Shown: in pieces, positions 13,679 to 33,508 of the stretch
How the letters are laid out: the number at the start of each line of letters is the position of its first letter
Numbering within the stretch: the first letter of the stretch is position 1
DNA from: a virus
Lineage: Duplodnaviria; Caudoviricetes
Length of the DNA: 64,000 nt
Direction: 5' to 3' (one strand)
IMG/VR virus record: IMGVR_UViG_2513237329_000013
Coordinates: 63,252 to 127,251 of that record
Made by a program: the position numbers and the translations under genes
Notes under the pieces: generated by a model
Database searches by the model: none
Seen by the model: the letters and a program-made list of their open reading frames with translations, nothing else
Told to the model about the DNA's origin: nothing

Positions 13679-13882
13679 ATGGAAGAGACTTTCGTAAGAA
13701 TGCGCAAAGCAAATGGTGTAACGCAGCGAATGAAAGATTTCTGGACGGTTTCTGTGAAGGATGGAAAATATGTGATATCAGCTAATGGACAACCGATTTG
13801 TCATGGCACTGTTCAACTTGGACAGACATGCGAAGTCATTCTTCGTGAGTGTTGCGGCGGAGTTTTCAGTAGGGTTAGTTAG
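13679..13882 (+). CDS. Small hypothetical protein
   Basis: 67-aa ORF convergent with the ImmA-like gene. Confidence 0.5.
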   Translation: MEETFVRMRKANGVTQRMKDFWTVSVKDGKYVISANGQPICHGTVQLGQTCEVILRECCGGVFSRVS

Positions 13883-14489
13883 TAATTCTCTTCTGAAGAT
13901 ATACACGGCGCATGTCATTCTCCCAGGCGGTTTTTCTGTGATATCTTGTCCATTTCACATATTCAGACCAGCGGTGTTCAGATGCTTCTTTGGATAGGCC
14001 AAATACGCGCTTGATATCTGATGGAGATTCAATTCTGAGTATCTCATACAGCGGCATAGGGCAAAGTAATGTGGCGGCAAATTGATCTGCCTCCGATTCA
14101 AACTCCGGAGCAGTAAGGTTGTTAAAACCGTTTTCTGCAAGCATTGGTTCTGCGACCAGCGGAAGGTGCTTTAGGATGACATGTCCAAGTTCATGTGCTT
14201 TTGTCCATAATCTTCTCCCATCAACATTGTTATCGGCGCAATCTTCATTCCACAAGATAAGATAACGGTCATTTGCAATGTCATAGTGCGTACAGCCAGA
14301 TTTACTTTCACACAGAATGATTACATCCAGAACGGTACACTGGTTGATTGTAGCAAACTCCTGATAGGTCAGCGCTCTACAGTTTGGCAATTGTGCAAGG
14401 ATATCGTAGGTGCAGATTGGGAATGAGATGCTGTCCATTCCCCTATACACTTGCAATACTTGATTGTATATGTAAGGATATCTAATCAC
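13875..14489 (-). CDS. ImmA/IrrE-family metallopeptidase (anti-repressor)
   Basis: RRLWTKAHELGH and ESEADQFAATLLCP motifs. Confidence 0.9.
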   Translation of the reverse strand: MIRYPYIYNQVLQVYRGMDSISFPICTYDILAQLPNCRALTYQEFATINQCTVLDVIILCESKSGCTHYDIANDRYLILWNEDCADNNVDGRRLWTKAHELGHVILKHLPLVAEPMLAENGFNNLTAPEFESEADQFAATLLCPMPLYEILRIESPSDIKRVFGLSKEASEHRWSEYVKWTRYHRKTAWENDMRRVYLQKRITN

Positions 14490-14545
14490 GGATATATACC
14501 TCCAGTGGGATGTAGTATATCATATTCGGTGTCCAATAAAGCGGA

Positions 14546-14893
14546 CTAATTCTCGTCCTTAAAGGCATATTCAAAGCCAAGACGGATCATCTTCATCATT
14601 TTTTCACGATCTTGTGCTGACATTTTTGATTTTGCTCGCTGCAAGGATACAAAATCATCATCCGATAACAGTTCTTCCGCAGATGACGGAATGTCTGATA
14701 GTCCAATTAAGTAATCAGATGAAACGCCAAAGTATTTTGCGATGATCTTAACCTTATCAATAGACGGTGAAGTGTTTGTTTTCCATTTGCGGATTAAGGA
14801 TGTCCCGATTCCGAGATCTTCTTCCAATTTTGCCATAGTGATCCCGCGCTCAGCGCAAAGCTCCTTTATTCTAAGATACAAAATTGATTCCAT
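14546..14893 (-). CDS. XRE/Cro-CI HTH repressor (ImmR-like)
   Basis: RIKELCAERGITMAKLEEDLGIG...PSIDKVKIIAKYFGVSSDYLIG; GGAGG RBS before ATG 14893. Confidence 0.9.
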   Translation of the reverse strand: MESILYLRIKELCAERGITMAKLEEDLGIGTSLIRKWKTNTSPSIDKVKIIAKYFGVSSDYLIGLSDIPSSAEELLSDDDFVSLQRAKSKMSAQDREKMMKMIRLGFEYAFKDEN

Positions 14894-14935
14894 ATGGTTG
14901 TCCTCCAATGCAGATAATATTTTCACGCTTTTCTA

Positions 14936-14964
14936 TTGACAGCGATAAGATATTCTGCTATACT
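14936..14964 (+). promoter_or_regulatory. SigA promoter, rightward
   Basis: TTGACA-17-TATACT. Confidence 0.8.
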
Positions 14965-15000
14965 GCGTAGTGTCGATAAGATATTATCGCTATGGTTGAA

Positions 15001-15029
15001 ATTATAGACCATATTTTCGCGGCTGTCAA
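15001..15029 (-). promoter_or_regulatory. SigA promoter, leftward (repressor)
   Basis: Perfect TTGACA-17-TATAAT on the minus strand. Confidence 0.85.
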
Positions 15030-15062
15030 CATGATAATCAATATTGGAGGGTGTGTATCAGG

Positions 15063-15494
15063 ATGAATGTATTAAACGGTTCAGAGCAGTATGAGATGAG
15101 AGCAGAAGATTTTGGTATGGAGAGCGCACAGTCCGATAAGATCGTCCTCCCGTATCTTGGGATGTTATGGGGAGATTTTCTTTTGGATATTATGAACGCC
15201 GTATCTCGAAAGATGACGCTTCCTCATGACGCATTGTATGAGCAGCTTGTAAAACAAGTTTCTGCTGGATTCTCTTTTAATGTTCAGCCGGCGCAAATTC
15301 GTATCATTGCCTATGTTGATGTATTCCCGTTTGACGGAACATCGTTTCGTGATAGAGTTTTTGTTCAGGCCAGTAATGATGAGATTGCCTCGGTGTTGGA
15401 CAGGTTTTTTCAATGTGGTTGTTGTGGATTGGATGATGACTATTCTACATATTATCACGAAAAATATATGGCGTGGCGCGAAGCAAAAAAATAA
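15063..15494 (+). CDS. Hypothetical protein
   Basis: First gene after the switch promoter. Confidence 0.65.
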   Translation: MNVLNGSEQYEMRAEDFGMESAQSDKIVLPYLGMLWGDFLLDIMNAVSRKMTLPHDALYEQLVKQVSAGFSFNVQPAQIRIIAYVDVFPFDGTSFRDRVFVQASNDEIASVLDRFFQCGCCGLDDDYSTYYHEKYMAWREAKK

Positions 15495-15515
15495 AACTTA
15501 TTTAGCAATTTCCTA

Positions 15516-15544
15516 TTGACAAACGGCTTCCGCTGCGCTATACT
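15516..15544 (+). promoter_or_regulatory. SigA promoter flanked by AGYTAAACAA-like operators
   Basis: TTGACA-17-TATACT; operator-like boxes at about 15498 (reverse) and 15561. Confidence 0.8.
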
Positions 15545-15598
15545 ATCACTTGTAAGGAACAAGTTAAACAACTTATAATTTGAATAGGAGGGTGGCGC

Positions 15599-16558
15599 GT
15601 GGATAACAGTAGTTACCGTAGCCAGTATATTGCCTCTGATACTGCGAAAGTGTCTGAACAGTCCGCAAATGCGGTAATTGCATTTTGGAGGCGTGTCGCA
15701 AAGGCAGAGGGTGAAATCGGAAAGAATCTGGAAGATGGGTATTCAAAAGCAGAATACATCGAGCTGATCTCGAAGTTGAATATCACAAGCCCCAACGTCC
15801 TGCTTCCTACAAAAAGCCGAATCGGAAAGTATTTGAAGTGGCTGCGAGAAAAAGGTGTTCTTGAAAAAGAGTATGTCGATAATCTTTACGCCATTCGATA
15901 CAATGCGATTAACGCAAATCATGTTTACGACAGCAAGTATTTCAAGGATTTTGAGTCGTTACAATCTGCGATTGAATCTACCTTGTGGGCTGCTGAGAAA
16001 GTTGATGATAGCGTCTTTGCTCTTCAAATCTCTGCAATTTACTTTGCGTGGCTTGGTTTACACATCGAGGAGGCACTTCAAATCAAGAAAGATGATATTA
16101 AAGATGATTGTGTAAAAATCGGAGATCGAACCATCATTCCAAACAGTACGATTATGGCGTATCTTTGTGATTACCGTGATGCGGTTGACTACGAGTCTCA
16201 AGCAAAGGGTGTCATTCGTTTGAAGTATACAAACTCCGAATGGCTGTTTCGCACCGCTCGCTCGACGCATGTGGATGTACCTAAGGTAATGAGGATCTTC
16301 ATTCGTAACTTCGGTTTGGCCGGCAATGAAGAAGCAAATATCTTTAATTATGATAAGGTGTACTGGTCTGGCATATTCAGCCGTGCGTATGAATATGAGC
16401 AGGAAAACGGTGAAATTGAGGCTGGCAACATCCCACTTCTTGAAAATTTGTTTAATGAAAAGTATCCATCTGTTTCTGTAGCGCATAAGCGTTTGCATGA
16501 ATATCAAGGTTTCAAGCAGCATTTCTTTTCTGATATCGCCTCCAATGAGGAAGCTTAA
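15599..16558 (+). CDS. Tyrosine-recombinase-fold protein lacking the catalytic Arg (MrpR/YopR-like repressor)
   Basis: WLGLHIEEALQIKKDDI (box I with R replaced by H); SAM-like N-terminus with IGKYLKWL; no HxxR. Confidence 0.6.
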   Translation: MDNSSYRSQYIASDTAKVSEQSANAVIAFWRRVAKAEGEIGKNLEDGYSKAEYIELISKLNITSPNVLLPTKSRIGKYLKWLREKGVLEKEYVDNLYAIRYNAINANHVYDSKYFKDFESLQSAIESTLWAAEKVDDSVFALQISAIYFAWLGLHIEEALQIKKDDIKDDCVKIGDRTIIPNSTIMAYLCDYRDAVDYESQAKGVIRLKYTNSEWLFRTARSTHVDVPKVMRIFIRNFGLAGNEEANIFNYDKVYWSGIFSRAYEYEQENGEIEAGNIPLLENLFNEKYPSVSVAHKRLHEYQGFKQHFFSDIASNEEA

Positions 16559-17392: not shown

Positions 17393-18292
17393 ATGAGAAA
17401 GAATGGTTTTGTTGGTGCTATCGTTTTGGCGATCATCATTTTTGGCGGCGTGATTCTCGGTTTTAGCTGTACATCGCGTGTCCCTACCGGTTATGTCGGA
17501 GTCGTTTATAATATGAACGGCGGCGTTGATGGTGAGGTTCTGAGTCAGGGCTGGCATCTTGTAGCGCCTACAAAGAAAGTAACCACCTATTCTATCGGTT
17601 TGGAGCAGTCCTACCTTACAAGCGAGGAAAAGGGTGACTCTCCGAACGATGAGAGCTTTTCCATTCCGACGTCCGATGGCAAGACTGTTCGTGTAAATCT
17701 TGAGTTCTCTTACAGATTTGACGAAGAGCGTGTTGCTGAAACATTTACGACTTTCAAGGGCAAGTCTGGAGAACAGATTAAGGATACATTTATTAAGCCT
17801 AAGATTATTGCGTGGACGCAGGAGGTTTCTGCAAATTACCCCGTCACTGACATCTTTGGCGATAAGCGTACTGAAATCAATGCTGAGTTGGACACCTATT
17901 TGCGTGATAAGTTCGATAAGTACGGCATTATTATCGACACAGTAAACTTCACTGATATCAGTGTAGATGATGAAACCGCCGCCGCAATTCAGAAGAAGGT
18001 CACTGCGCAGCAGGAACTTGAACTGGCTAATATCGAGGCTCAGACTGCCAAGGTTCAGGCCGAAAAGGATCGTCAGGTTGCTGAAATCAACGCTGAGAAG
18101 CAGATCATTGATGCAAATGCGAAGGCTGAGGTAACGCGCATTGAAGCAGAAGCAGAAGCTCAGGCAAACCGTGAGATTGCCGCATCCCTCACCCCAAATC
18201 TGATTGAGAAGATCAAGTACGAGCGCTGGAATGGTGAGCTTCCTACCGTATCTGGTTCTGGAGCAATCGTCAGTATTGACGGCGTTGACTGA
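17393..18292 (+). CDS. SPFH/band-7/prohibitin membrane protein
   Basis: N-terminal TM, VPTGYVGV, GWHLVAP, AE-rich coiled coil, WNGELP. Confidence 0.9.
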   Translation: MRKNGFVGAIVLAIIIFGGVILGFSCTSRVPTGYVGVVYNMNGGVDGEVLSQGWHLVAPTKKVTTYSIGLEQSYLTSEEKGDSPNDESFSIPTSDGKTVRVNLEFSYRFDEERVAETFTTFKGKSGEQIKDTFIKPKIIAWTQEVSANYPVTDIFGDKRTEINAELDTYLRDKFDKYGIIIDTVNFTDISVDDETAAAIQKKVTAQQELELANIEAQTAKVQAEKDRQVAEINAEKQIIDANAKAEVTRIEAEAEAQANREIAASLTPNLIEKIKYERWNGELPTVSGSGAIVSIDGVD

Positions 18293-18602: not shown

Positions 18603-18658
18603 ACGACGCGAACAGCAATTTTCTTACATATATTTGGGTTATATCGTACATGCGTCGT
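18603..18658 (+). ncRNA. ACAGCAA-module RNA 1 enclosing a Pro(TGG) anticodon stem-loop
   Basis: Closing stem ACGACGCG/TGCGTCGT; AACAGCAAT; ATATA-TTTGGGT-TATAT. Confidence 0.7.
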
Positions 18659-18876: not shown

Positions 18877-18933
18877 AAGACGCAAACAGCAATCTAACAA
18901 AATCAAACTTGAAATTTGACAGATAAGCGTCTT
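18877..18933 (+). ncRNA. ACAGCAA-module RNA 2 enclosing a Ser(TGA) anticodon stem-loop
   Basis: Stem AAGACGC/GCGTCTT; AACAGCAAT; TCAAA-CTTGAAA-TTTGA. Confidence 0.7.
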
Positions 18934-18945
18934 GTGGTGTGATAT

Positions 18946-19036
18946 GGAGTAGTAATCCTAACTGGTAAGGAAGTAGTTTGCTAAACTACCAGTAATCGGG
19001 AACGATGTGCAGGTTCGAGTCCTGTCTACTCCGCCA
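18946..19036 (+). tRNA. tRNA-Ser(GCT)
   Basis: GGAGTAG/CTACTCC acceptor, GTAGT-TTGCTAA-ACTAC, long variable arm, TTCGAGT, G-CCA. Confidence 0.92.
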
Positions 19037-19198: not shown

Positions 19199-19285
19199 GC
19201 TGATGTGATGGAACTGGCATACATGGGGGACTTAAAATCCCCCGCCGATTGTGGATTATGGGTTCGACTCCCATCATCAGCACCA
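19199..19285 (+). tRNA. tRNA-Leu(TAA)
   Basis: GCTGATG/CATCAGC acceptor, GGGGA-CTTAAAA-TCCCC, TTCGACT, A-CCA. Confidence 0.92.
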
Positions 19286-19367: not shown

Positions 19368-19479
19368 GAGGGCGTCTGGATGACAGCTTTAAGGTGTATC
19401 GAACGGCGGACACCTACAGCAATGTTCTTTAAGAAAACTGGAATTTTTCTGCTTGCGGGTTCGATTCCCGTAGCTCTCA
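19368..19479 (+). ncRNA. tRNA-like RNA (GGA anticodon) with inserted ACAGCAA module 3
   Basis: GAGGGC/GCTCTC acceptor, T arm GCGGG-TTCGATT-CCCGT, AGAAAA-CTGGAAT-TTTTCT; insert AGGTGT/ACACCT + ACAGCAAT. Confidence 0.65.
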
Positions 19480-19548
19480 AAGCCGTTAAATAATCTTCTC
19501 GAATTGGTGAGCAATTCACAACTTCTCTGGGAAGATGTAATAAGAAAT

Positions 19549-19659
19549 GCAGAGGTAGCTCAGTCGGTAGAGCATCAGACAAAAAATGTGCTAAGCATTA
19601 GCACTAACAGCAATGTTAAAGGAATCCGAGTGTCGGAGGTTCGAGTCCTCCCCTCTGCG
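19549..19659 (+). ncRNA. tRNA body with ACAGCAA module 4 inserted in the anticodon loop (identity uncertain)
   Basis: GCAGAGG/CCTCTGC, D arm GCTC-AGTCGGTA-GAGC, T arm GGAGG/CCTCC; insert GTGCTAA-GCA-TTAGCAC-TAACAGCAAT. Confidence 0.75.
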
Positions 19660-19666
19660 TCTATAT

Positions 19667-19738
19667 TCGTGTGTAACATTTACGAAAGTACACCGTGGAT
19701 GCGATTGGTATATGTCAGTTCGATTCTGACCGCACGAG
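19667..19738 (+). pseudogene. Pseudo-tRNA (acceptor and T arm intact, D and anticodon arms degenerate)
   Basis: TCGTGTG/CGCACGA; GTCAG-TTCGATT-CTGAC. Confidence 0.55.
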
Positions 19739-19746
19739 CCTATAAT

Positions 19747-19861
19747 GCCAGGGTAGCTCAACTGGTAGAGCGCGTAATAATGCGACTTGTTAAGCCGCTT
19801 ACAGCAAATTTCTTTTGGTCTGTTAAACCCGTGGTTGCAGGTTCGATTCCTGCCCCTGGCT
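19747..19861 (+). ncRNA. tRNA-Asn(GTT)-like with ACAGCAA module 5 inserted in the anticodon stem
   Basis: GCCAGGG/CCCTGGC, canonical D and T arms, CG[insert]GGT-CTGTTAA-ACCCG; insert GCGACTT/AAGCCGC + TTACAGCAAA. Confidence 0.78.
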
Positions 19862-19881
19862 CAACGTGAATGACTGCTTAA

Positions 19882-19939
19882 ACCATTCTAAACCGACACG
19901 ACAAAAGGGTAGAAATGGTGACAGCTCGGAGAGACGGGC
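19882..19939 (+). ncRNA. Two-hairpin phage RNA motif (skipping-rope/DUF2800-like?)
   Basis: ACCATTCTA/TAGAAATGGT stem, then GACA-GCTCG-GAGAGA-CGGGC; family resemblance from memory only. Confidence 0.4.
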
Positions 19940-19947
19940 ATCTATAT

Positions 19948-20065
19948 ACGGCAGTGGTGAAGCGGTAACACAGCAGCCATACAAATGCGAAAAGTGGATT
20001 TTCGCTAACAGCTATTTCACACTCCAAGCTGCCAATCGTAGGTTCGATTCCTACCTGCCGTTCCA
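19948..20065 (+). ncRNA. tRNA-Gly(TCC)-like with ACAGCTA module 6 inserted in the anticodon loop
   Basis: ACGGCAG/CTGCCGT-T-CCA, GCAGC-C[insert]CTCCAA-GCTGC; insert GCGAAAA/TTTTCGC + TAACAGCTAT. Confidence 0.78.
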
Positions 20066-20125: not shown

Positions 20126-20189
20126 GAGACGCACACAGCAATTTGTAAGTAAAGTATTTGGCCTGATAAGCGGATTTCTTTTGCGTCTC
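20126..20189 (+). ncRNA. ACAGCAA-module RNA 7 enclosing an Ile(GAT) anticodon-like loop
   Basis: Stem GAGACGCA/TGCGTCTC; CACAGCAAT; GC-CTGATAA-GC. Confidence 0.68.
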
Positions 20190-20201: not shown

Positions 20202-20237
20202 AAGACACAAACAGCATCGAGTGTGAAATGGTGTCTT
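20202..20237 (+). ncRNA. Minimal ACAGCA module 8 in the 5' leader of the DUF2828 gene
   Basis: Stem AAGACAC/GTGTCTT enclosing AAACAGCATC; no anticodon arm. Confidence 0.6.
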
Positions 20238-20292: not shown

Positions 20293-21837
20293 ATGAGTGG
20301 TTTTATGTCTGCTATGAAAAGCACTTTGAACGATGAGTTCAATGTTTCTGTTACTGAGAACGGTGCTATTGGCTATCGCACTACTGGCAAGGAACTGTTG
20401 GATCTCAACTTTGCCGTTGCATCTCTTCGTAAGGCATCTCCGAGCGATATTGCAAATCGTTTCGTCAGAGCGTTTTTCGAGGATAAGATCACGGCAATGA
20501 AATGGCTGTTCTTTGCGCGTGATGTTCGTGGAGGTCTTGGTGAACGCCGTTTGTTCCGCATTGTGTTTCAGCGCATGGCTGAGGAAAATCCGGAATACAT
20601 CATTCCGCTGCTTCCTCTCGTTCCTGAGTATGGACGCTATGATGACCTGTGGTGTTTGTTTGATACAAAGCTTGCACCTAATGTACTGAACATCATTGCG
20701 CAGCAGCTCCGCGAGGACATTCAGAACTTGAGTGATGGCAATGGTATTTCTCTTCTCGCAAAGTGGCTTCCGTCTGCGAATGCTCATTCCGCTGACGCAA
20801 AGCGTTATGCTAAGCAGATTTACAAGTTTATGGGCATTTCTGAGCGCGACTACCGTAAGGTGCTGTCCAAGCTGCGTTCTAAGCTGGATATCGTGGAGAA
20901 GAAAATGTCCGAAAAGCGTTGGGATGAGATTGCGTATGAAGCTGTCCCGTCTCGTGCAAATCTGATTTACAACTCTGCGTTCCTTCGTAACGACGAAGAT
21001 CGTCGCCGTGATTTCCTATCCCGTTTGGAAAAGGGCGAAACGAAAATCAATGCGTCTACGCTTTTCCCGCATGACATTGTTGCAAAGTATAGCGATGGTT
21101 GGCGTGGTCTGAAGCCTACGGATAAGACGCTTGAAGCTCTTTGGAACGCGCTTCCCGATACCGTAAACGGATGCGGCAATACAATTGTTGTTGCGGATGG
21201 CAGCGGCAGTATGACCGTGAATGTTGGCGGCGGCAATGTTACTGCGCTGGCTGTGGCAAACGCGCTTGCAATTTATTTCGCAGAGCGTTCCTCTGGTCAG
21301 TTCAAGGATAATTACATTACATTTTCTGAGCGTCCTCAGCTCGTCGATTTGAGTAAGGGTAAGAATCTCCGTGAGAAGATTCAGATTGCGCTTAAACACA
21401 GCGAGGTAGCAAACACAAATATCGAAGCGGTGTTTGATCTTATCCTGACTACGGCAAAGAAAAACAATATGGAACAGAGCGACCTTCCCGCAAACATCCT
21501 TATTATCTCCGATATGGAGTTTGACTACTGCGCAACATCGAATGGCGGAAGCCGATATACTCGTGGTAGTGTTGATTCTCGTCTGTTTGACAAGATTGCA
21601 AAGCGCTACGAGGACGCTGGGTATAAGTTACCAAGGCTTGTGTTCTGGAATGTGAATAGCCGCACGAATACTATTCCTATTAAGGAAAACGAGATGGGAG
21701 TTGCGCTTGTAAGCGGTTTTAGCCCGAACATCGCAAAGATGGTGATGAGCGGTCAAACCGATCCGTATGAGTGCTTGCTTGAAACGCTGAACTCTGATCG
21801 TTATAAGCCTATCGGTGACGCTCTGGAAAATCAGTAA
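20293..21837 (+). CDS. DUF2828 protein (TROVE/Ro60-like helical domain + vWA)
   Basis: TENGA, ARDVRGGLGERRLF, YGRYDDL, SLLAKWLPS, ADGSGSM (MIDAS), ISDMEFD, VFWNV, LVSGFSP. Confidence 0.88.
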   Translation: MSGFMSAMKSTLNDEFNVSVTENGAIGYRTTGKELLDLNFAVASLRKASPSDIANRFVRAFFEDKITAMKWLFFARDVRGGLGERRLFRIVFQRMAEENPEYIIPLLPLVPEYGRYDDLWCLFDTKLAPNVLNIIAQQLREDIQNLSDGNGISLLAKWLPSANAHSADAKRYAKQIYKFMGISERDYRKVLSKLRSKLDIVEKKMSEKRWDEIAYEAVPSRANLIYNSAFLRNDEDRRRDFLSRLEKGETKINASTLFPHDIVAKYSDGWRGLKPTDKTLEALWNALPDTVNGCGNTIVVADGSGSMTVNVGGGNVTALAVANALAIYFAERSSGQFKDNYITFSERPQLVDLSKGKNLREKIQIALKHSEVANTNIEAVFDLILTTAKKNNMEQSDLPANILIISDMEFDYCATSNGGSRYTRGSVDSRLFDKIAKRYEDAGYKLPRLVFWNVNSRTNTIPIKENEMGVALVSGFSPNIAKMVMSGQTDPYECLLETLNSDRYKPIGDALENQ

Positions 21838-22219: not shown

Positions 22220-22530
22220 TGCCAGATGTTGTTATGACGAATCATAGCGTGAAGCGAACAAAAGAAAGAATCGGACTAAGCAAGAAAATTGCCGATAAGA
22301 ATGCGCAGAGAGCGCTTGAATACGGTATTACACACTCTGAGGCAAAGGGTGGTTTGTGTCGGTATCTTGATAAGCTGTATCTGTCGAATGGTAATGCAAA
22401 TAATGTTCGTGTTTATCACAGATATGTATATCTCTTTCGTGGGAACACGCTTTTGACAATCATTCCATTACCAAACAAATTCTATGCTCTGGCGGACAAA
22501 CTTCAAAAACAGAAAGGCGAAGTAGAATGA
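22219..22530 (+). CDS. Basic hypothetical protein (possible RelE-like fold)
   Basis: MTNHSVKRTKER...YLFRGNTLLTII. Confidence 0.55.
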   Translation: MPDVVMTNHSVKRTKERIGLSKKIADKNAQRALEYGITHSEAKGGLCRYLDKLYLSNGNANNVRVYHRYVYLFRGNTLLTIIPLPNKFYALADKLQKQKGEVE

Positions 22531-23483
22531 GGATCGTAAAAACACATACCGGAAAAATTTATGTTGATAAGGATAAGAAACTGGAGTTTTTAACGGTTGG
22601 CGACTATGGCAAGGAAAACAATATTAAAGCAAGTTTTCTTGGTTTGAACAAAGAAATCAATGGTGTTCGACATCATGCGGTTGACCTGGCGGATAAGTGG
22701 GTTGCTACTATCAGCACTCAGAAAGGTTGCCCGATGAATTGTCAGTTTTGTGATTGTCCGAAGTATGGATTTCACGGAAATGTATCTCGTGAAGAACTGG
22801 TTTATGAAATTGAGACAATTCTTGCAAACGAACGAGTAACACATACTAATCGTTTCAATGTTCACTTTGCTCGTATGGGTGAACCTACATTCAACGATGC
22901 CGTTCTTCCGTTTGCTGAATTTGATTTGAAGTCGCTGGTGAATCGGTTCATTACGGCAGACACAATTCATCCTGTTGTTTCAACTATGCTTCCGAAAGTA
23001 AATGCCAATTTGAAGTCATTCATCATGGAATGGTGTCGCATCAAGAACAGTGTGTACAGTGGAGAAGCTGGTCTGCAATTTAGCATCAACTCGACTGATC
23101 AGGCGCAGCGTAATGAACAGTTCAACGGAAAGAGCTTATCATTATCAGAAATTTCAAGTCTCGCATCTAAGCTTCCTATGCCAGTCGGTAGAAAATACAC
23201 ATTGAATTTTGCGGTAACGGCTGACACGATTTTGGATGCGGTGGAGCTTGGAAAGTTGTTCGATAAGGAAAAGTTTATCGTAAAAATTACGCCGATTCAC
23301 CAGACAAATGCAGCCATTAAGAATGGATTTGATGTGACCACGGAATATACCGACTACGATGTTTACCGCAAGTTTGAAGATCCGCTTGTTGCTGCTGGAT
23401 GGGATGTCATTGTGTTCGTGCCGAGCGAGGAAGAAGATAGCGACCGTATTACTTGCGGAAATGCCTTAATTTCAGATAAGTGA
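22527..23483 (+). CDS. RlmN/Cfr-like radical SAM RNA methyltransferase
   Basis: STQKGCPMNCQFC, RMGEP, QFSINS, C-terminal TCG. Confidence 0.75.
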   Translation: MRIVKTHTGKIYVDKDKKLEFLTVGDYGKENNIKASFLGLNKEINGVRHHAVDLADKWVATISTQKGCPMNCQFCDCPKYGFHGNVSREELVYEIETILANERVTHTNRFNVHFARMGEPTFNDAVLPFAEFDLKSLVNRFITADTIHPVVSTMLPKVNANLKSFIMEWCRIKNSVYSGEAGLQFSINSTDQAQRNEQFNGKSLSLSEISSLASKLPMPVGRKYTLNFAVTADTILDAVELGKLFDKEKFIVKITPIHQTNAAIKNGFDVTTEYTDYDVYRKFEDPLVAAGWDVIVFVPSEEEDSDRITCGNALISDK

Positions 23484-25212: not shown

Positions 25213-26292
25213 GTGATTAAGAAGGTTGATCGGAAAAATCGGTTTGTAGCGATGTTTAATCCTACGACTGGCTTTTATGCTCGTAGCGGTGTGATTGATG
25301 AGAATGGTCATGACACCGGCGTAGATCCGTTTATGACAGCGTTCCCAGAGCTGATTGATGTCGGCGTGATGGGGCATTGTGTTCACGGAGCAAGCGGTCT
25401 TTGCTTTAAGTCTGGCGTTCAGTGCTATCAGAACGGATTAAAAACCAAAGAGCCAAATATGACGCTTGAAAATTTCAAACGCATTGTTGACGAATGTAAG
25501 GGTAAAACATTTCAGCTCGCGCTTGGCGGTCGTGGTGATGTTGACCAGCACGAAAATTTTGCTGAGATTTTGCAGTATTGTAGGGAAAACAATATCGTGC
25601 CGAATTTCACTTCTTCTGGGCTTGGCTTTACAGATGAGATTGTAGATCTGTGTAGAAGATACTGTGGTGCAGTAGCAATCTCCTGGTATCGTCAGAAACA
25701 TACATACCGTGCGATTCAGATGCTTTTGGATGCTGGCGTAAAAACGAACATTCATTATGTTCTTGGAAACAATTCTGTTGAAGAAGCAATTATGCGGCTA
25801 AAAAATAATGGTTTTCCTGCTGGCATTAACGCAGTGATTTTCCTTCTTCACAAACCCGTTGGACTCGGAAGCGAAGAGAATGTTTTGCAGATGGATAACC
25901 CGCTCGTAAGACAGTTCTTTGAGATCGTGGATACACAGAAATTCAATTTCAAAATTGGCTTCGACTCATGTTCTATTCCAGCCGTTTTGAATCTGACTCA
26001 CAATATTGACCACGATAGTATTGATACTTGCGAGGGTGGCAGATGGAGCATGTATATTACAAGCGATATGAAAGCTTTGCCTTGTAGCTTCGATAATCAA
26101 GAGCTGCGTTGGGCGTTTGATATTAGCAATGCAAGTATCGAAGAAGCTTGGAATAGTCAGCAGTTTGAAAGCTTCAGAAGCCATTTCAGAAATTCTTGCC
26201 CGAATTGTCAGTGCCAACACGCTTGTATGGGCGGTTGTCCGATTCGTCCGCAAGTAGTTTTGTGCGATAAGGTAGAAAAGGAGCTGTATTAA
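25213..26292 (+). CDS. Radical SAM/SPASM-domain protein
   Basis: Atypical CX7CX6C cluster motif, LGGRGD, CEGG...PCSF...CPNC...C..GCP SPASM. Confidence 0.85.
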   Translation: MIKKVDRKNRFVAMFNPTTGFYARSGVIDENGHDTGVDPFMTAFPELIDVGVMGHCVHGASGLCFKSGVQCYQNGLKTKEPNMTLENFKRIVDECKGKTFQLALGGRGDVDQHENFAEILQYCRENNIVPNFTSSGLGFTDEIVDLCRRYCGAVAISWYRQKHTYRAIQMLLDAGVKTNIHYVLGNNSVEEAIMRLKNNGFPAGINAVIFLLHKPVGLGSEENVLQMDNPLVRQFFEIVDTQKFNFKIGFDSCSIPAVLNLTHNIDHDSIDTCEGGRWSMYITSDMKALPCSFDNQELRWAFDISNASIEEAWNSQQFESFRSHFRNSCPNCQCQHACMGGCPIRPQVVLCDKVEKELY

Positions 26293-30208: not shown

Positions 30209-31648
30209 ATGTACGCAGCATATGTAACTCGTATTAAGAATTTGCGCAAACATTCAAACGCGGATCGACTTCTCTGCGGTGAATGTTTTGGCAATACGGT
30301 AATTGTGGGCTTGGATACAAAGCCAGAAGAGCTTGGTGTTTATTTCCCCGTAGATGGCAAGCTTGGAACTGAGTATGCGGTGAAGAATGACCTGCTTCGG
30401 CGTAAGGATGAAAACGGTAAGCCGGCTGGTGGTTATCTCGATCCTGAAAAGCGCAATATTAAGGCGTTGAAGCTTCGTGGCGAAAAGAGCGATGGCTTGT
30501 TTATGCCGTTGTCCAGTTTGAACGGGTTTACGGATATTGCAAAGCTCCGTGAGGGCGATGTAATTACCATTTTGAATGGTGTCACAATTTGTGAGAAGTA
30601 TATCCCACGTCGTAAGAAGAGTACCATTATGGTTGGGGGGGGTAGGACTCGTAAGCATCACGATCCTATTGCCCCGCTCTTTGCGGAACATGCTGACACG
30701 GAACAGCTTGCATATAACCTCAGCGCATTTCACCAAGGCGATCTTGTTGAGATTACTTTGAAAATGCACGGTACATCTCAGCGAACCGGATATCTGCCAA
30801 CGCTTAAAGGATATAAGAGGACATTGCTTGATAAACTCCTACATCGCGTTGGTTCTCCGATTTATAATTGGGGATATGTAACTGGCACTCGTCGTGTTGT
30901 TCTGGATGATTTTGACGGCGGCTTCTATGGCAGCAATGCTTTCCGTGAACAGCATAGCAAGGTTTTTGAAGGTAAGCTTCATAAGGGCGAAACCGTGTAC
31001 TATGAAGTCGTTGGCTTTACGCAAGACAAGCAGCCTATTATGGCATCTTGCGACAATAAAAAAGTCGGTGATAAGGAATTTGTTAAACAATACGGAGAAA
31101 AGACAGTGTTTAGCTATGGTTGCTATCCGGACGGTGTAAAGGAAGTAACAAATCCGAAAATTACATACGCAACAGTAATGATTGGCGATACCTCTTTTAC
31201 AGCAAATGAGATTACGGAATATGAATCTGCTCCGCAGTCTGATTTTTATGTGTATCGAATGACGATGACAAATGAGGATGGCGATGTTGTCGAATACACA
31301 CCTGACTTTATGCGTTATCGTTGTGAGCAGATGGGTGTTAAGTGCGTTCCGCTATTCGCTCGATTCATCATTCCGGATTACATCCAGCTTCCTGATGCTG
31401 TTGGATCTCCGATGGCTGTCAATGCTGGCGAATATGTCAAGGAGATTGCCGAAAACTTCTATGATGGTGCAGACCCGATTGGTAAGTCGCATGTCCGAGA
31501 GGGCGTTGTTTGCCGTATCGTAAACCGCCCAAAGTTTACAGCATATAAGCACAAGAATTTTGCATTCAAGGTACTTGAGGGAATTGTAAAGGATATTGCG
31601 TCTGCTCCGGACATGGAAGAAGCGCAGGATGAGACAAGCGCCGCGTAA
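30209..31648 (+). CDS. ATP-dependent RNA ligase (DRB0094/Rnl-like) with N-terminal OB/tRNA-binding-like domain
   Basis: HSNADRL, KLRGEKSDGL, TLKMHGTS (motif I), YYEVVG, REGVV, KHKNFAF. Confidence 0.8.
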   Translation: MYAAYVTRIKNLRKHSNADRLLCGECFGNTVIVGLDTKPEELGVYFPVDGKLGTEYAVKNDLLRRKDENGKPAGGYLDPEKRNIKALKLRGEKSDGLFMPLSSLNGFTDIAKLREGDVITILNGVTICEKYIPRRKKSTIMVGGGRTRKHHDPIAPLFAEHADTEQLAYNLSAFHQGDLVEITLKMHGTSQRTGYLPTLKGYKRTLLDKLLHRVGSPIYNWGYVTGTRRVVLDDFDGGFYGSNAFREQHSKVFEGKLHKGETVYYEVVGFTQDKQPIMASCDNKKVGDKEFVKQYGEKTVFSYGCYPDGVKEVTNPKITYATVMIGDTSFTANEITEYESAPQSDFYVYRMTMTNEDGDVVEYTPDFMRYRCEQMGVKCVPLFARFIIPDYIQLPDAVGSPMAVNAGEYVKEIAENFYDGADPIGKSHVREGVVCRIVNRPKFTAYKHKNFAFKVLEGIVKDIASAPDMEEAQDETSAA

Positions 31649-31767: not shown

Positions 31768-32589
31768 ATGAGTGACAGAGTAAAGATTATGAAACGGCTT
31801 TCTGAACACCTCGAAGCAGTAAGAGACAAACACCCTGAGTGGGTTGGTATTTTTCTTCAAGGTTCACAAAACTACAACTTAGACTATGAGGGAAGCGATA
31901 TTGATTCCAAGCTGATTGTCCTCCCTTCGTTTGAAGATTTTGTTTTGAACAAAAGACCATATAGTTACACACACATCATGGAAAACGATGAACATGTAGA
32001 TGTTAAGGATATTCGTCTGATGCTCGATTGCTTCAAAAAGCAGAATGTAAATTTTGTTGAGATTCTTTTTACGCCGTACCGTATCTTGAATCCAAAGTAC
32101 GAAGCTTTGTTCCAGCCGATTCTTGATATTGCAGAGAGAGTCGGTCGATATAACAACTATGCCGCATTGAATTGCATGGTAGGAATGGCGCTCGAAAAGC
32201 AAAAGGCATTGTGCCACCCATATCCTGCAACAAAAGACAAGATTGATAAATACGGGTTCGATAGCAAACAGTATCATCACATTGAGCGTCTTTATGAATT
32301 CATGCAGCGTTGGCTTAATGGCGAGCCATATCGTGATTGCCTCGTTTCTAAACAAGTGGAGCGTCTTAGAGAAATCAAGCTTTATATTAACTGCGATCTT
32401 ACAACGGCGCAGGTCAATTCGGATAGAATCGTATCTGAGATGAAATCAATCAAGGACACTTATATGCAGCAGAATCCAGTTGTAGTAGACCGTGAGGTTG
32501 ATTCGGTTTTCAATAAAGTTCTGCTTGATTTATTTAAGTTCAACTTCCAGTGCGAGCTTGGTAACGACTCGCCCAATAAAAAGGAGTAA
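31768..32589 (+). CDS. DNA pol-beta-superfamily nucleotidyltransferase
   Basis: GSQNYNL...SDID; KQNVNFVEILF. Confidence 0.8.
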   Translation: MSDRVKIMKRLSEHLEAVRDKHPEWVGIFLQGSQNYNLDYEGSDIDSKLIVLPSFEDFVLNKRPYSYTHIMENDEHVDVKDIRLMLDCFKKQNVNFVEILFTPYRILNPKYEALFQPILDIAERVGRYNNYAALNCMVGMALEKQKALCHPYPATKDKIDKYGFDSKQYHHIERLYEFMQRWLNGEPYRDCLVSKQVERLREIKLYINCDLTTAQVNSDRIVSEMKSIKDTYMQQNPVVVDREVDSVFNKVLLDLFKFNFQCELGNDSPNKKE

Positions 32590-32593
32590 GAAT

Positions 32594-33508
32594 ATGTCTA
32601 TCTTTTTTATGATGGTAGGTCTTCCGTACAGCGGAAAATCTGTTTATGCGGAGGGGCTGCGAGAGAAGTTCGGCGCAGAGATTCATTCCAGCGATGCAAT
32701 TCGAGCAGAGATTCTTGGAAATGTACAGGATCAGACAAACAATCAGATTGTTTTTGACACTCTGCACAAGCGTGTAATTTCTGATTTGTCTGCTGGTAAA
32801 AATGTAATCTACGACGCGACGAATATCAATTACAAGCGGCGTATTGATCTGCTGAATCGCTTGTCAAAGGTAAAGTGTCAGAAGGTCTGTATCGTTATGG
32901 CGACACCTTTTCACGAATGTGAAGAGCGTAGCAAGCATCGTGAGCGTGTTGTCCCACACGAGGTTCTTGTGCGTATGTATAAGAATTTCTGGATTCCATA
33001 CTGGTATGAGGGGTGGGACGTAATCGAGCTTGTTTATCCAGATAATTTTGAGCCGTACAGTGTAAGTGATTTATTTAATCGTGATGGAGGACTGAATAGC
33101 TTCGAGCAGGACAATCCGCATCATATTTTCACGGTTGGACATCATTGTATTGCTACATACGGGCTGGTTTCTGATGGAAGTGCAGAGCTTCAGGAGGCTG
33201 CTCTTCTTCATGATATCGGTAAGCCTTTCACAAAAAGCTTTGTTAATAGTAAGGGCGAAACAACAGAGATTGCTCATTATTATGAACATCAGCATGTTTC
33301 AGCCTATGATAGCTTGTTCTACTCAAATCCAAGTTTGAATCGGCTGTATATCGCAAATATCATCCAGTGGCATATGCGTCCGTTTGAACTTGAACGAGAT
33401 TCCCATTCTGGCAAAGCACAGAAGCGGTTCAAAAAGCTTGTTGGCAATAAGCTTTATTCAGATGTGATGAAACTTCACGCCGCTGATATCGAAGCAAAAG
33501 GAACTTGA
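32594..33508 (+). CDS. Polynucleotide kinase (AAA_33) + HD phosphohydrolase
   Basis: GLPYSGKS, SSDAIR, YDATN; HH...ALLHDIGK...HM...D. Confidence 0.85.
   Translation: MSIFFMMVGLPYSGKSVYAEGLREKFGAEIHSSDAIRAEILGNVQDQTNNQIVFDTLHKRVISDLSAGKNVIYDATNINYKRRIDLLNRLSKVKCQKVCIVMATPFHECEERSKHRERVVPHEVLVRMYKNFWIPYWYEGWDVIELVYPDNFEPYSVSDLFNRDGGLNSFEQDNPHHIFTVGHHCIATYGLVSDGSAELQEAALLHDIGKPFTKSFVNSKGETTEIAHYYEHQHVSAYDSLFYSNPSLNRLYIANIIQWHMRPFELERDSHSGKAQKRFKKLVGNKLYSDVMKLHAADIEAKGT

What the first reader, a model, noticed from the sequence alone, without database searches (positions are those of the whole stretch)
19368..20065. tRNAs carrying about 40-nt hairpin+ACAGCAA insertions in the anticodon arm
Seen: four tRNA bodies have recognisable acceptor and T arms (three with canonical D arms), but carry the module between the D arm and anticodon arm (19368), in the anticodon loop (19549, 19948) or in the anticodon stem (19747). 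Removing the insert from the Asn-like and Gly-like genes leaves near-normal cloverleaves, and the Gly-like one ends in T-CCA. The inserts are far too short for group I introns, and I see no bulge-helix-bulge. Inference: these are either a new protein-spliced tRNA intron type (the element encodes an RNA ligase and a kinase/HD enzyme) or permanently tagged tRNA mimics.
Basis: partly seen in the sequence, partly recalled or inferred. Interest (0 to 1): 0.85.

Follow-up and report, generated by a model that had tools for sequence, protein, structure and literature searches.

The report
tRNA look-alikes carrying a Ro60-type handle
Four odd "tRNA genes" of a gut phage are most likely not intron-containing tRNAs: they are tRNA-shaped small RNAs with a conserved docking handle (a short hairpin plus ACAGCAA) in the anticodon arm, probably bound by the Ro60-shaped protein encoded just downstream, and I found no published description of this RNA-protein pairing.

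Summary
Four tRNA-like genes (19368-20065) each carry a 38-45-nt module: A-rich strand, 5-7-bp hairpin P1, 1-2 nt, ACAGCAA (once ACAGCTA), U-rich strand. It always lies on the 5' side of the anticodon.

The module is not specific to tRNAs. In 79 phage loci fetched only by homology to the neighbouring DUF2828 protein, ACAGCAA occurs 389 times on the gene's strand and 40 times on the other. It is present in 77 of 79 loci.

The same handle appears in three forms:
- inside tRNAs (64 distinct cases);
- as the terminal stem of circularly permuted tRNA-like RNAs (YrlA topology);
- around bare anticodon stem-loops.

The DUF2828 protein folds like Ro60.

No bulge-helix-bulge, ribozyme or conserved nuclease gene was found. 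Anticodons swap on one body. Ser and Leu anticodons sit on short-variable-loop bodies that could not be charged as such.

Best reading (0.7): stable Y-RNA-like tRNA mimics that dock on the Ro60-like protein. The intron model gets about 0.1.

This scan has reported the same handle and protein system before, both on this stretch and in at least eight other genomes. I found no paper or Rfam family for it.

The parts
19368..19479 (+). tRNA-like RNA 1. It has an acceptor stem, no canonical D arm, the module (P1 19392-19415, ACAGCAA 19416-19422), the anticodon stem-loop 19433-19449 (loop CUGGAAU) and a T arm 19455-19471.
   Evidence: Sequence read; motif; weak tRNA-Sec hit only (17.1 bits). An orthologue with the same GGA loop is in L056.
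19549..19659 (+). tRNA-like RNA 2. It has a canonical D and T arm and the stem halves UCAGA (19575-19579) and UCCGA (19625-19629). Between them lie 45 nt holding P1 19588-19604 and ACAGCAA 19607-19613.
   Evidence: Rfam tRNA 52.6 bits with a 44-nt insertion. No canonical loop results from any single deletion. The same design is in L002 and L056.
19747..19861 (+). tRNA-like RNA 3. The insert 19775-19816 lies between positions 28 and 29 (P1 19782-19798, ACAGCAA 19801-19807). The rest of the anticodon arm is at 19817-19831 (loop CUGUUAA).
   Evidence: Rfam tRNA 46.8 bits. Deletion gives a unique canonical solution. Orthologues keep the insert, with covarying P1.
19948..20065 (+). tRNA-like RNA 4. 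The insert at about 19978-20022 is in the anticodon loop (P1 19987-20005, ACAGCTA 20008-20014). The gene ends in T-CCA.
   Evidence: Rfam tRNA 48.6 bits; for the two possible loops.
18603..18658 (+). Stand-alone module RNA: ACGACGC-GA-ACAGCAA-payload-GCGTCGT.
18877..18933 (+). Stand-alone module RNA: AAGACGC-AA-ACAGCAA-payload-GCGTCTT. It lies just before the normal tRNA-Ser.
20126..20189 (+). Stand-alone module RNA: GAGACGC-AC-ACAGCAA-payload with the loop CUGAUAA-GCGTCTC.
20202..20237 (+). Short module copy (AAGACAC-AA-ACAGCAT-13 nt-GTGTCTT) in the leader of the DUF2828 gene.
   Evidence: fold z-score -4.8.
20293..21837 (+). DUF2828 + DUF7788/vWA protein (514 aa) with a Ro60-like fold. It is the presumed partner of the module.
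   Evidence: Pfam. AlphaFold model with pLDDT 83.5. The top 13 PDB matches are all Ro60/TROVE structures, E 1.6e-8 to 2.8e-6 over the full length.

Best explanation
The roughly 40-nt inserts are copies of a conserved RNA handle. Its parts are an A-rich strand, helix P1 (consensus GYGYCUU paired with AAGRCRC), two bases, the invariant ACAGCAA and a U-rich strand. This handle marks a family of small RNAs encoded beside phage DUF2828 genes.

DUF2828 folds like the ring-shaped RNA-binding protein Ro60. I infer that the handle is its docking site. That would make it the counterpart of the Ro-binding stem of Y RNAs. The tRNA body or anticodon arm would then be the displayed cargo, as in the bacterial tRNA-mimicking Y RNA YrlA.

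In this window the cargo is a whole, non-permuted tRNA frame. The handle hangs by single-stranded linkers from the 5' side of the anticodon arm. The RNAs are therefore stable chimeric tRNA mimics, not precursors that must be spliced.

What is shown: the module, its covariation, its three topologies, its strand-specific link to DUF2828, and the Ro60-like fold.

What is inferred: binding, stability, and the role. The likely role is presenting tRNA or anticodon-arm look-alikes to host or phage enzymes that act on tRNA, in the contest over tRNA cleavage and repair.
For: 1. Unbiased link to the protein. In 79 loci fetched by a DUF2828 protein profile, ACAGCAA occurs 389 times on the gene strand and 40 times on the opposite strand. 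It is in 77 of 79 loci and peaks in the 1.5 kb upstream and just downstream of the gene. The helix next to it is far above shuffled controls.

2. DUF2828 is the only protein shared by these loci, in 86 of 86.

3. Fold. The top 13 PDB hits are all Ro60/TROVE structures.

4. The same handle occurs where splicing is meaningless. It encloses bare anticodon stem-loops such as CUUUUAA. It also forms the terminal stem of permuted RNAs ordered T arm, closed acceptor, D arm. These hit Rfam YrlA at 36-44 bits.

5. The handle is conserved from Mycobacterium, E. coli, Listeria, Enterococcus and Bacillus phages to gut phages.

6. P1 covaries: 94.8% of cells are paired, 45 cells changed on both sides, and 0 of 500 shuffles reach this. 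RNAalifold finds P1 independently, together with the acceptor, D and T stems.

7. The anticodon is uncoupled from the body. It is GUU, GAU or UCU on one body, and two of the five differences between L131 and L132 lie in the anticodon. Ser (GCU) and Leu (GAG, CAG) anticodons sit on class-I bodies in 7 of 34 cases.

8. An RNA ligase and a kinase+HD enzyme lie in the same phage. This echoes the bacterial rsr-yrlBA-rtcBA operon named in PMC7790460.
Against: There are no RNA or binding data: transcript ends, stability and protein binding are all inferred.

34 of 64 tRNA-embedded copies become perfectly canonical class-I tRNAs when one insert is removed, 24 of them at positions 28|29 or 29|30. That is what an intron model predicts. 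However, the bare stem-loop cargoes are equally canonical.

The handle does not resemble the known Ro60 site GNCGAAN0-1G (PMC4201824).

DUF2828 has no significant sequence match to TROVE proteins.

P1 sequences for one search were chosen by a pairing rule, so that count leans towards pairing.
Confidence: 0.7

Rival explanations
1. The inserts are a new kind of protein-dependent tRNA intron. An endonuclease recognises the hairpin+ACAGCAA module and cuts on both sides. The phage kinase/HD enzyme and RNA ligase then heal and seal the halves into working tRNAs.
For: Removing one insert gives a canonical tRNA in 34 of 64 cases, including 19747 here. An RNA ligase (30209-31648) and an AAA_33 kinase + HD protein (32492-33508) are encoded in the window. 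One gene ends in CCA.
Against: The same module closes RNAs that have nothing to splice.

There is no bulge-helix-bulge-like pairing, and no exon-insert pairing above shuffled controls. There is no ribozyme match. No conserved nuclease neighbour exists.

Gene 19549 gives no canonical loop, 19368 has no D arm, and 19948 is ambiguous.

Ser and Leu anticodons on class-I bodies could not give chargeable tRNAs.

No insert-free counterpart was found. The nearest normal tRNAs are only 66-81% identical.
Confidence: 0.1
2. They are working tRNAs that keep the extra arm. They are charged and used in translation, and the handle recruits the Ro60-like protein to shield or mend the anticodon arm against host anticodon nucleases.
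For: The acceptor, D and T arms and many anticodon loops are fully canonical. The linkers are single-stranded, so the 5-bp anticodon helix can stack through the insertion point. tRNA repair genes are present in the phage.
Against: A 40-nt branch at pairs 28-30 lies where, by textbook ribosome structure, the anticodon stem is contacted in the P site. This is my own knowledge and was not tested here.

Bodies and anticodons are uncoupled.

8 of 34 chimeric anticodons duplicate a normal tRNA in the same locus, so there is no sign that the two sets complement each other.

Permuted and stem-loop-only relatives cannot be charged.
Confidence: 0.1
3. The inserts have no RNA function of their own. They could be a small mobile insertion, decaying tRNA pseudogenes, or hairpin terminators for the opposite strand.
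For: On the minus strand, two P1 hairpins followed by the A-rich linker score as terminator-like sites. CTTTAAG flanks the module in 19368.
Against: P1 differs in every copy and covaries. The inserts are retained in orthologues from 99% down to about 60% protein identity.

The A-rich run stays with one P1 strand even when the two strands are 30-100 nt apart. A terminator could not tolerate that.

The heptamer is invariant across phages of three bacterial phyla.
Confidence: 0.03

Closest known systems
YrlA-type Y RNAs with Ro60/Rsr (Rfam RF02553; Chen et al. 2014, PMC4201824)
   Same: Both are small RNAs with tRNA-like T and D arms. Both are encoded on the same strand next to a ring-plus-vWA protein of Ro60 fold, often near RNA repair genes. 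Permuted relatives in other phages have the YrlA order of arms and hit the YrlA model at E 2e-6 to 3e-4.
   Different: All hits are below the gathering score: 21 bits in the window and 36-44 bits elsewhere, against 69. The proposed protein site is helix + ACAGCAA, not GNCGAAN0-1G. The protein is DUF2828, not Pfam TROVE. Here the tRNA frame is not permuted: the acceptor ends are open and the handle is an internal branch of the anticodon arm. A real anticodon loop is kept.
Thermus phage phiLo phiRo60 with Yrl1/Yrl2 (PMC12135203; PDB 9kop, 9l5y)
   Same: It is a phage-encoded Ro60-fold protein with small RNAs encoded just upstream. Its structure is among the best fold matches.
   Different: Its RNAs were picked by a CGAA motif and are stem-bulge-stem RNAs, with no tRNA frame and no ACAGCAA. 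The protein is annotated TROVE. A profile of DUF2828 proteins matches it only at E 0.22.
Archaeal and eukaryal protein-spliced tRNA introns (bulge-helix-bulge), including non-canonical positions and permuted tRNA genes
   Same: These are short inserts in or near the anticodon arm. In half of the cases here, removal restores a cloverleaf. Healing-and-sealing type enzymes are present in the phage.
   Different: There is no bulge-helix-bulge. No splicing endonuclease candidate is conserved nearby. The insert carries a conserved sequence that also occurs outside tRNAs.
Bas63 gp130 (PhageMaP preprint, PMC11482910)
   Same: It is a Ro60-like protein encoded directly upstream of the tRNA cluster of a Felix O1-type phage. 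The authors guessed that some 'tRNAs' there are Y RNAs. I found three handle RNAs in that position in the related phage momo.
   Different: I did not verify that gp130 is the same gene as momo's. The preprint names no RNA motif. The momo RNAs are stand-alone, not tRNA-embedded.

Membership tests
tRNA (Rfam RF00005) | Cloverleaf with acceptor, D, anticodon and T arms scoring above the gathering threshold | tested here: met
   Three genes score 46.8-52.6 bits against a threshold of 29. The fourth (19368) does not reach it.
tRNA (Rfam RF00005) | Uninterrupted 5-bp anticodon stem and 7-nt loop in the gene as encoded | tested here: not met
   There are 44-55 extra bases in the anticodon arm. ARAGORN without the intron option finds none of the four.
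tRNA (Rfam RF00005) | Anticodon matched to a body that the cognate synthetase could charge | tested here: inconclusive
   In relatives, Ser and Leu anticodons sit on class-I bodies (7 of 34) and anticodons swap on one body. Charging itself was not testable.
YrlA / Y RNA (Rfam RF02553) | Score at or above the gathering threshold | tested here: not met
   21.3 bits in the window and 35.9-43.7 bits for permuted relatives, against a threshold of 69.
YrlA / Y RNA (Rfam RF02553) | Ro60-binding motif GNCGAAN0-1G in a stem formed by the 5' and 3' ends | tested here: not met
   The conserved element is helix + NN + ACAGCAA. In the window's tRNA-like genes it is internal, not terminal.
YrlA / Y RNA (Rfam RF02553) | tRNA-like T and D arms, and a position next to a Ro60-type gene on the same strand | tested here: met
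Bulge-helix-bulge tRNA intron | Two 3-nt bulges separated by a 4-bp helix formed between exon and intron | tested here: not met
   The longest exon-insert and linker-tail helices equal those of shuffled controls: 3.4 vs 3.3, 3.7 vs 3.8 and 4.1 vs 3.9.
Group I or other self-splicing intron | Catalytic core recognisable by a covariance model, and a size above about 200 nt | tested here: not met
   The inserts are 38-45 nt. No ribozyme family matched at E up to 5.
Ro60 / TROVE proteins (for the neighbouring gene) | HEAT-repeat ring plus vWA domain fold | tested here: met
   Foldseek's top 13 hits are all Ro60/TROVE, with 500-588 aligned columns and TM 0.35-0.58. D302, S304 and S306 are invariant, which I read as a DxSxS site.
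Ro60 / TROVE proteins (for the neighbouring gene) | Match to Pfam TROVE or significant sequence similarity to solved Ro60 structures | tested here: not met
   Pfam gives only DUF2828, DUF7788 and VWA_2. phmmer gives nothing. The profile gives E 0.13-0.26, limited to the vWA part.

The most novel reading that the evidence does not exclude
The Ro60-like protein and its handle-tagged RNAs form a phage particle that displays a changeable panel of anticodon arms and whole tRNA frames as baits. The baits would soak up, sense or redirect host anticodon nucleases, or feed cleaved tRNAs to the phage ligase and kinase. On this reading the anticodon triplets evolve as cargo in an arms race rather than for decoding.
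Probability: 0.3. Interest if true: 0.85.

Novelty: new variant of a known kind. Interest (0 to 1): 0.74.

Why it matters
Ro60 and its Y RNAs are conserved from bacteria to humans. What the tRNA-like part of bacterial Y RNAs is for remains unknown.

This is a second, sequence-unrelated branch of that system. It is present in easily grown phages (Felix O1-type, Listeria P100-type, mycobacteriophages), and its RNAs carry explicit anticodon arms. That points directly at enzymes that read anticodon arms, and makes the question testable with ordinary phage genetics.

There is also a practical point. These genes are mis-called by tRNA finders: ARAGORN with introns calls Leu, Pro and Trp here. They inflate or distort phage tRNA counts.

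Tried and rejected
- Insert-free counterpart. An exact-pattern scan of IMG/VR for the joined exons of gene 19747 found nothing. The best normal tRNA among 1081 in the held loci is only 66-81% identical to any in-silico spliced chimera, and often of another isotype.
- A closing helix between the 5' linker and the 3' tail, or exon-insert helices of the bulge-helix-bulge kind. None exceeded shuffled controls.
- A conserved partner enzyme. Clustering all ORFs of 86 loci gave only DUF2828 in all of them, and a Band7/SPFH gene in 11.
- Terminator reading of P1 on the minus strand. Rejected because the A-rich run follows one P1 strand even when the helix is split.
- Direct sequence match of the protein to PDB. 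There was none.
- My first, loose search for split helices had a high false-positive rate, with 150 of 275 control motifs scoring. The counts of 'open' copies are therefore upper bounds, and one search gives the controlled figures.
- Complementarity between chimeric and normal tRNA sets. 8 of 34 are duplicated, which is uninformative.
- Literature. Searches for ACAGCAA, DUF2828, Ro-like proteins and phage tRNA introns gave no description of this RNA. Burroughs and Aravind 2016 is not in the library.

Full report
**What is there**

The window is a phage or prophage of gut Clostridia. Close relatives are 65-105-kb IMG/VR contigs and an Oscillospiraceae MAG.

Between a Band7/SPFH gene and a DUF2828 gene lies a 1.7-kb non-coding array. 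ARAGORN finds only two ordinary tRNAs in it: Ser-GCU at 18946 and Leu-UAA at 19199.

Rfam's tRNA model finds three more, at 19549, 19747 and 19948. Each has 44-55 extra bases in the anticodon arm. A fourth, at 19368, has acceptor, anticodon and T arms but no canonical D arm.

Each of the four carries the same module: an A-rich strand, a 5-7-bp hairpin (P1), one or two bases, ACAGCAA (ACAGCTA in the last), and a U-rich strand.

**Where exactly the inserts sit**

I enumerated every single deletion that leaves a class-I cloverleaf.

- Gene 19747 has one solution. Removing 19775-19816 joins CG to GGU, giving the stem CGGGU/ACCCG and the loop CUGUUAA.
- Gene 19948 can be read in two ways. One is a Gly-like loop without U33. 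The other, from ARAGORN's intron mode, is Trp-CCA with U33 and one stem mismatch.
- Gene 19549 gives no canonical loop.
- Gene 19368 has the module 5' of an intact anticodon arm.
- ARAGORN's intron mode calls the three as Leu, Pro and Trp, using forced structures.

**The module is not a tRNA feature**

The same heptamer, preceded by one strand of a helix, also occurs in the window at 18612, 18886, 20135 and 20211. In these copies the partner strand lies 13-41 nt downstream.

I then fetched 79 further phage loci purely by a protein profile of DUF2828 (38-75% identity).

- ACAGCAA occurs 389 times on the gene's strand and 40 times on the other. About 43 per strand are expected by chance.
- It is present in 77 of 79 loci. 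Most copies lie in the 1.5 kb upstream of the gene, with a second peak just downstream.
- Under a strict rule (2-nt spacer, six perfect pairs), 73 copies have a hairpin immediately upstream and 173 have the partner strand within 70 nt downstream. Shuffled flanks give 12 and 40.
- Both forms share one consensus: AAAU-GYGYCUU paired with AAGRCRC-NN-ACAGCAA, followed by U-rich sequence.

P1 varies from copy to copy and covaries. 94.8% of cells are paired and 45 cells changed on both sides. That set was chosen by a pairing rule. RNAalifold on 21 whole tRNA-like sequences recovers P1 independently, together with the acceptor, D and T stems. 21 of its 23 pairs show compensatory changes.

**Three topologies of one handle**

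- Stand-alone RNAs. The helix encloses ACAGCAA and a payload that is very often a 4-5-bp stem with a 7-nt loop of anticodon type, such as CUUUUAA, CUGUUAA, CUUUCAA or CUGCUAA. 104 of 150 distinct payloads have such a hairpin.
- Circularly permuted tRNA-like RNAs. The order is handle strand A, anticodon arm, T arm, acceptor stem closed by a tetraloop, D arm, handle strand B. Examples are in L066, L035, L116, L043 and in Mycobacterium phage Nicholas. This is the order of arms in YrlA. Rfam's YrlA model hits them at 36-44 bits, which is significant but below the gathering score of 69.
- Ordinary tRNA frames with the handle capped by a loop and set into the anticodon arm. This is the present finding. 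There are 64 distinct cases in the unbiased set.

Handle RNAs also flank the DUF2828 gene in cultured phages. These are E. coli phage momo (a Felix O1 type), Mycobacterium phage Nicholas, and a Listeria, an Enterococcus and a Bacillus phage.

**The partner**

DUF2828 is the only protein common to these loci, in 86 of 86. A Band7 gene recurs in 11.

The protein has no significant sequence match in the PDB. Its AlphaFold model has pLDDT 83.5. Its 13 best PDB matches are all Ro60/TROVE structures, matched over the full length. They include frog and human Ro60, Deinococcus Rsr and the Thermus phage phiRo60.

Annotators already call it 'Ro-like RNA binding protein' in some records.

Known Ro60 sites are GGUCCGA or GNCGAAN0-1G (PMC4201824), and CGAA in phage phiLo (PMC12135203). 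ACAGCAA is different.

**Intron or handle?**

For the intron model:
- 34 of 64 tRNA-embedded copies become perfectly canonical when one insert is removed. 24 of these inserts lie at 28|29 or 29|30 in the 5' strand of the anticodon stem.
- The phage has a ligase and a kinase/HD enzyme.

Against the intron model:
- The bare stem-loop cargoes are just as canonical, so a canonical loop does not imply splicing.
- The handle occurs where there is nothing to splice.
- The linkers and exon ends show no pairing above shuffled controls, so there is no bulge-helix-bulge.
- There is no ribozyme hit and no conserved nuclease neighbour.
- One body carries GUU, GAU or UCU in close relatives. L131 and L132 differ at 5 of 125 positions, two of them in the anticodon.
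- Seven of the 34 'canonical' products have Ser or Leu anticodons on bodies with a 4-5-nt variable loop. By textbook knowledge, bacterial tRNA-Ser and tRNA-Leu need the long arm. The window's own normal tRNA-Ser has one.
- No insert-free counterpart was found.

I therefore read the inserts as permanent handles. Because the linkers are single-stranded, the five anticodon-stem pairs can stack through the insertion point and the handle can swing free.

**How it probably works (inferred)**

The Ro60-like ring binds P1 and ACAGCAA. The tRNA frame or anticodon arm is then presented to something that recognises tRNA.

By analogy, Y RNAs tether Ro60 to PNPase, and in enteric bacteria they are encoded with the RtcB repair ligase (PMC4201824, PMC7790460). 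In a Felix O1-type phage, a Ro60-like gene in this position counters a defence system (PMC11482910). I did not verify that it is the same gene.

The commonest cargo loops are Lys-UUU, Asn-GUU and Ser-GCU. Together with the swapping anticodons, this suggests baits for anticodon-directed enzymes. That step is speculation.

**Standing**

I found no paper or Rfam family for this RNA.

After forming my reading, I learned that this scan has noted the same handle and protein system before. It is in other notes on this very stretch and in follow-ups on at least eight other genomes. Those are AI notes, not independent evidence.

What this report adds is the test of intron against handle for the non-permuted tRNA form.

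Noticed in passing
window 19664-19741: A tRNA fragment-like element: an acceptor-like stem (CGUGUG...CGCACG) and a good T arm (GUCAG UUCGAUU CUGAC), with no D or anticodon arm. It has a P1-like hairpin (GUGUA...UACAC) followed by CG-UGGAUGC instead of ACAGCAA. It may be a diverged handle RNA. Rfam's weak YrlA hit (21 bits) spans it and the next D arm.
   Followed up: partly
window 17393-18292; L129 1752-2684: A Band7/SPFH membrane protein gene lies just upstream of the RNA array, both here and in Mycobacterium phage Nicholas. It recurs in 11 of 86 DUF2828 loci.
   Followed up: partly
L131 3466-3589 versus L132 3493-3616: Two nearly identical handle-bearing tRNA-like genes differ at 5 of 125 positions. 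Two of the differences change the anticodon from GUU to UCU.
   Followed up: yes
window 20202-20237: The shortest handle copy (13-nt payload, ACAGCAT variant) ends 56 nt before the DUF2828 start codon. In the 79 loci, the 500 nt before the gene hold the most copies (127). A role in controlling the gene's own expression is possible.
   Followed up: no
L035 1-552 (minus strand); L120 6133-6245: Other large or rare structured RNAs sit in the same phage tRNA islands: ROOL RNA (254 bits) and RAGATH-33 (138 bits).
   Followed up: no
L209 6807-8060; L210 6217-6756; L211 6027-7268: In cultured Listeria, Enterococcus and Bacillus phages, a 'tRNA ligase', a phosphoesterase or a metallophosphatase lies 0.6-1.3 kb downstream of the DUF2828 gene.
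   Followed up: no
window 22527-23483 and 25213-26292: A radical SAM protein and a SPASM-domain protein follow the DUF2828 gene. Whether they have any link to RNA modification was not examined.
   Followed up: no
window 13875-16558: A Peptidase_M78/IrrE-like gene, an HTH repressor-like gene and a recombinase-like gene (MrpR N-terminal domain) suggest a temperate lifestyle.
   Followed up: no
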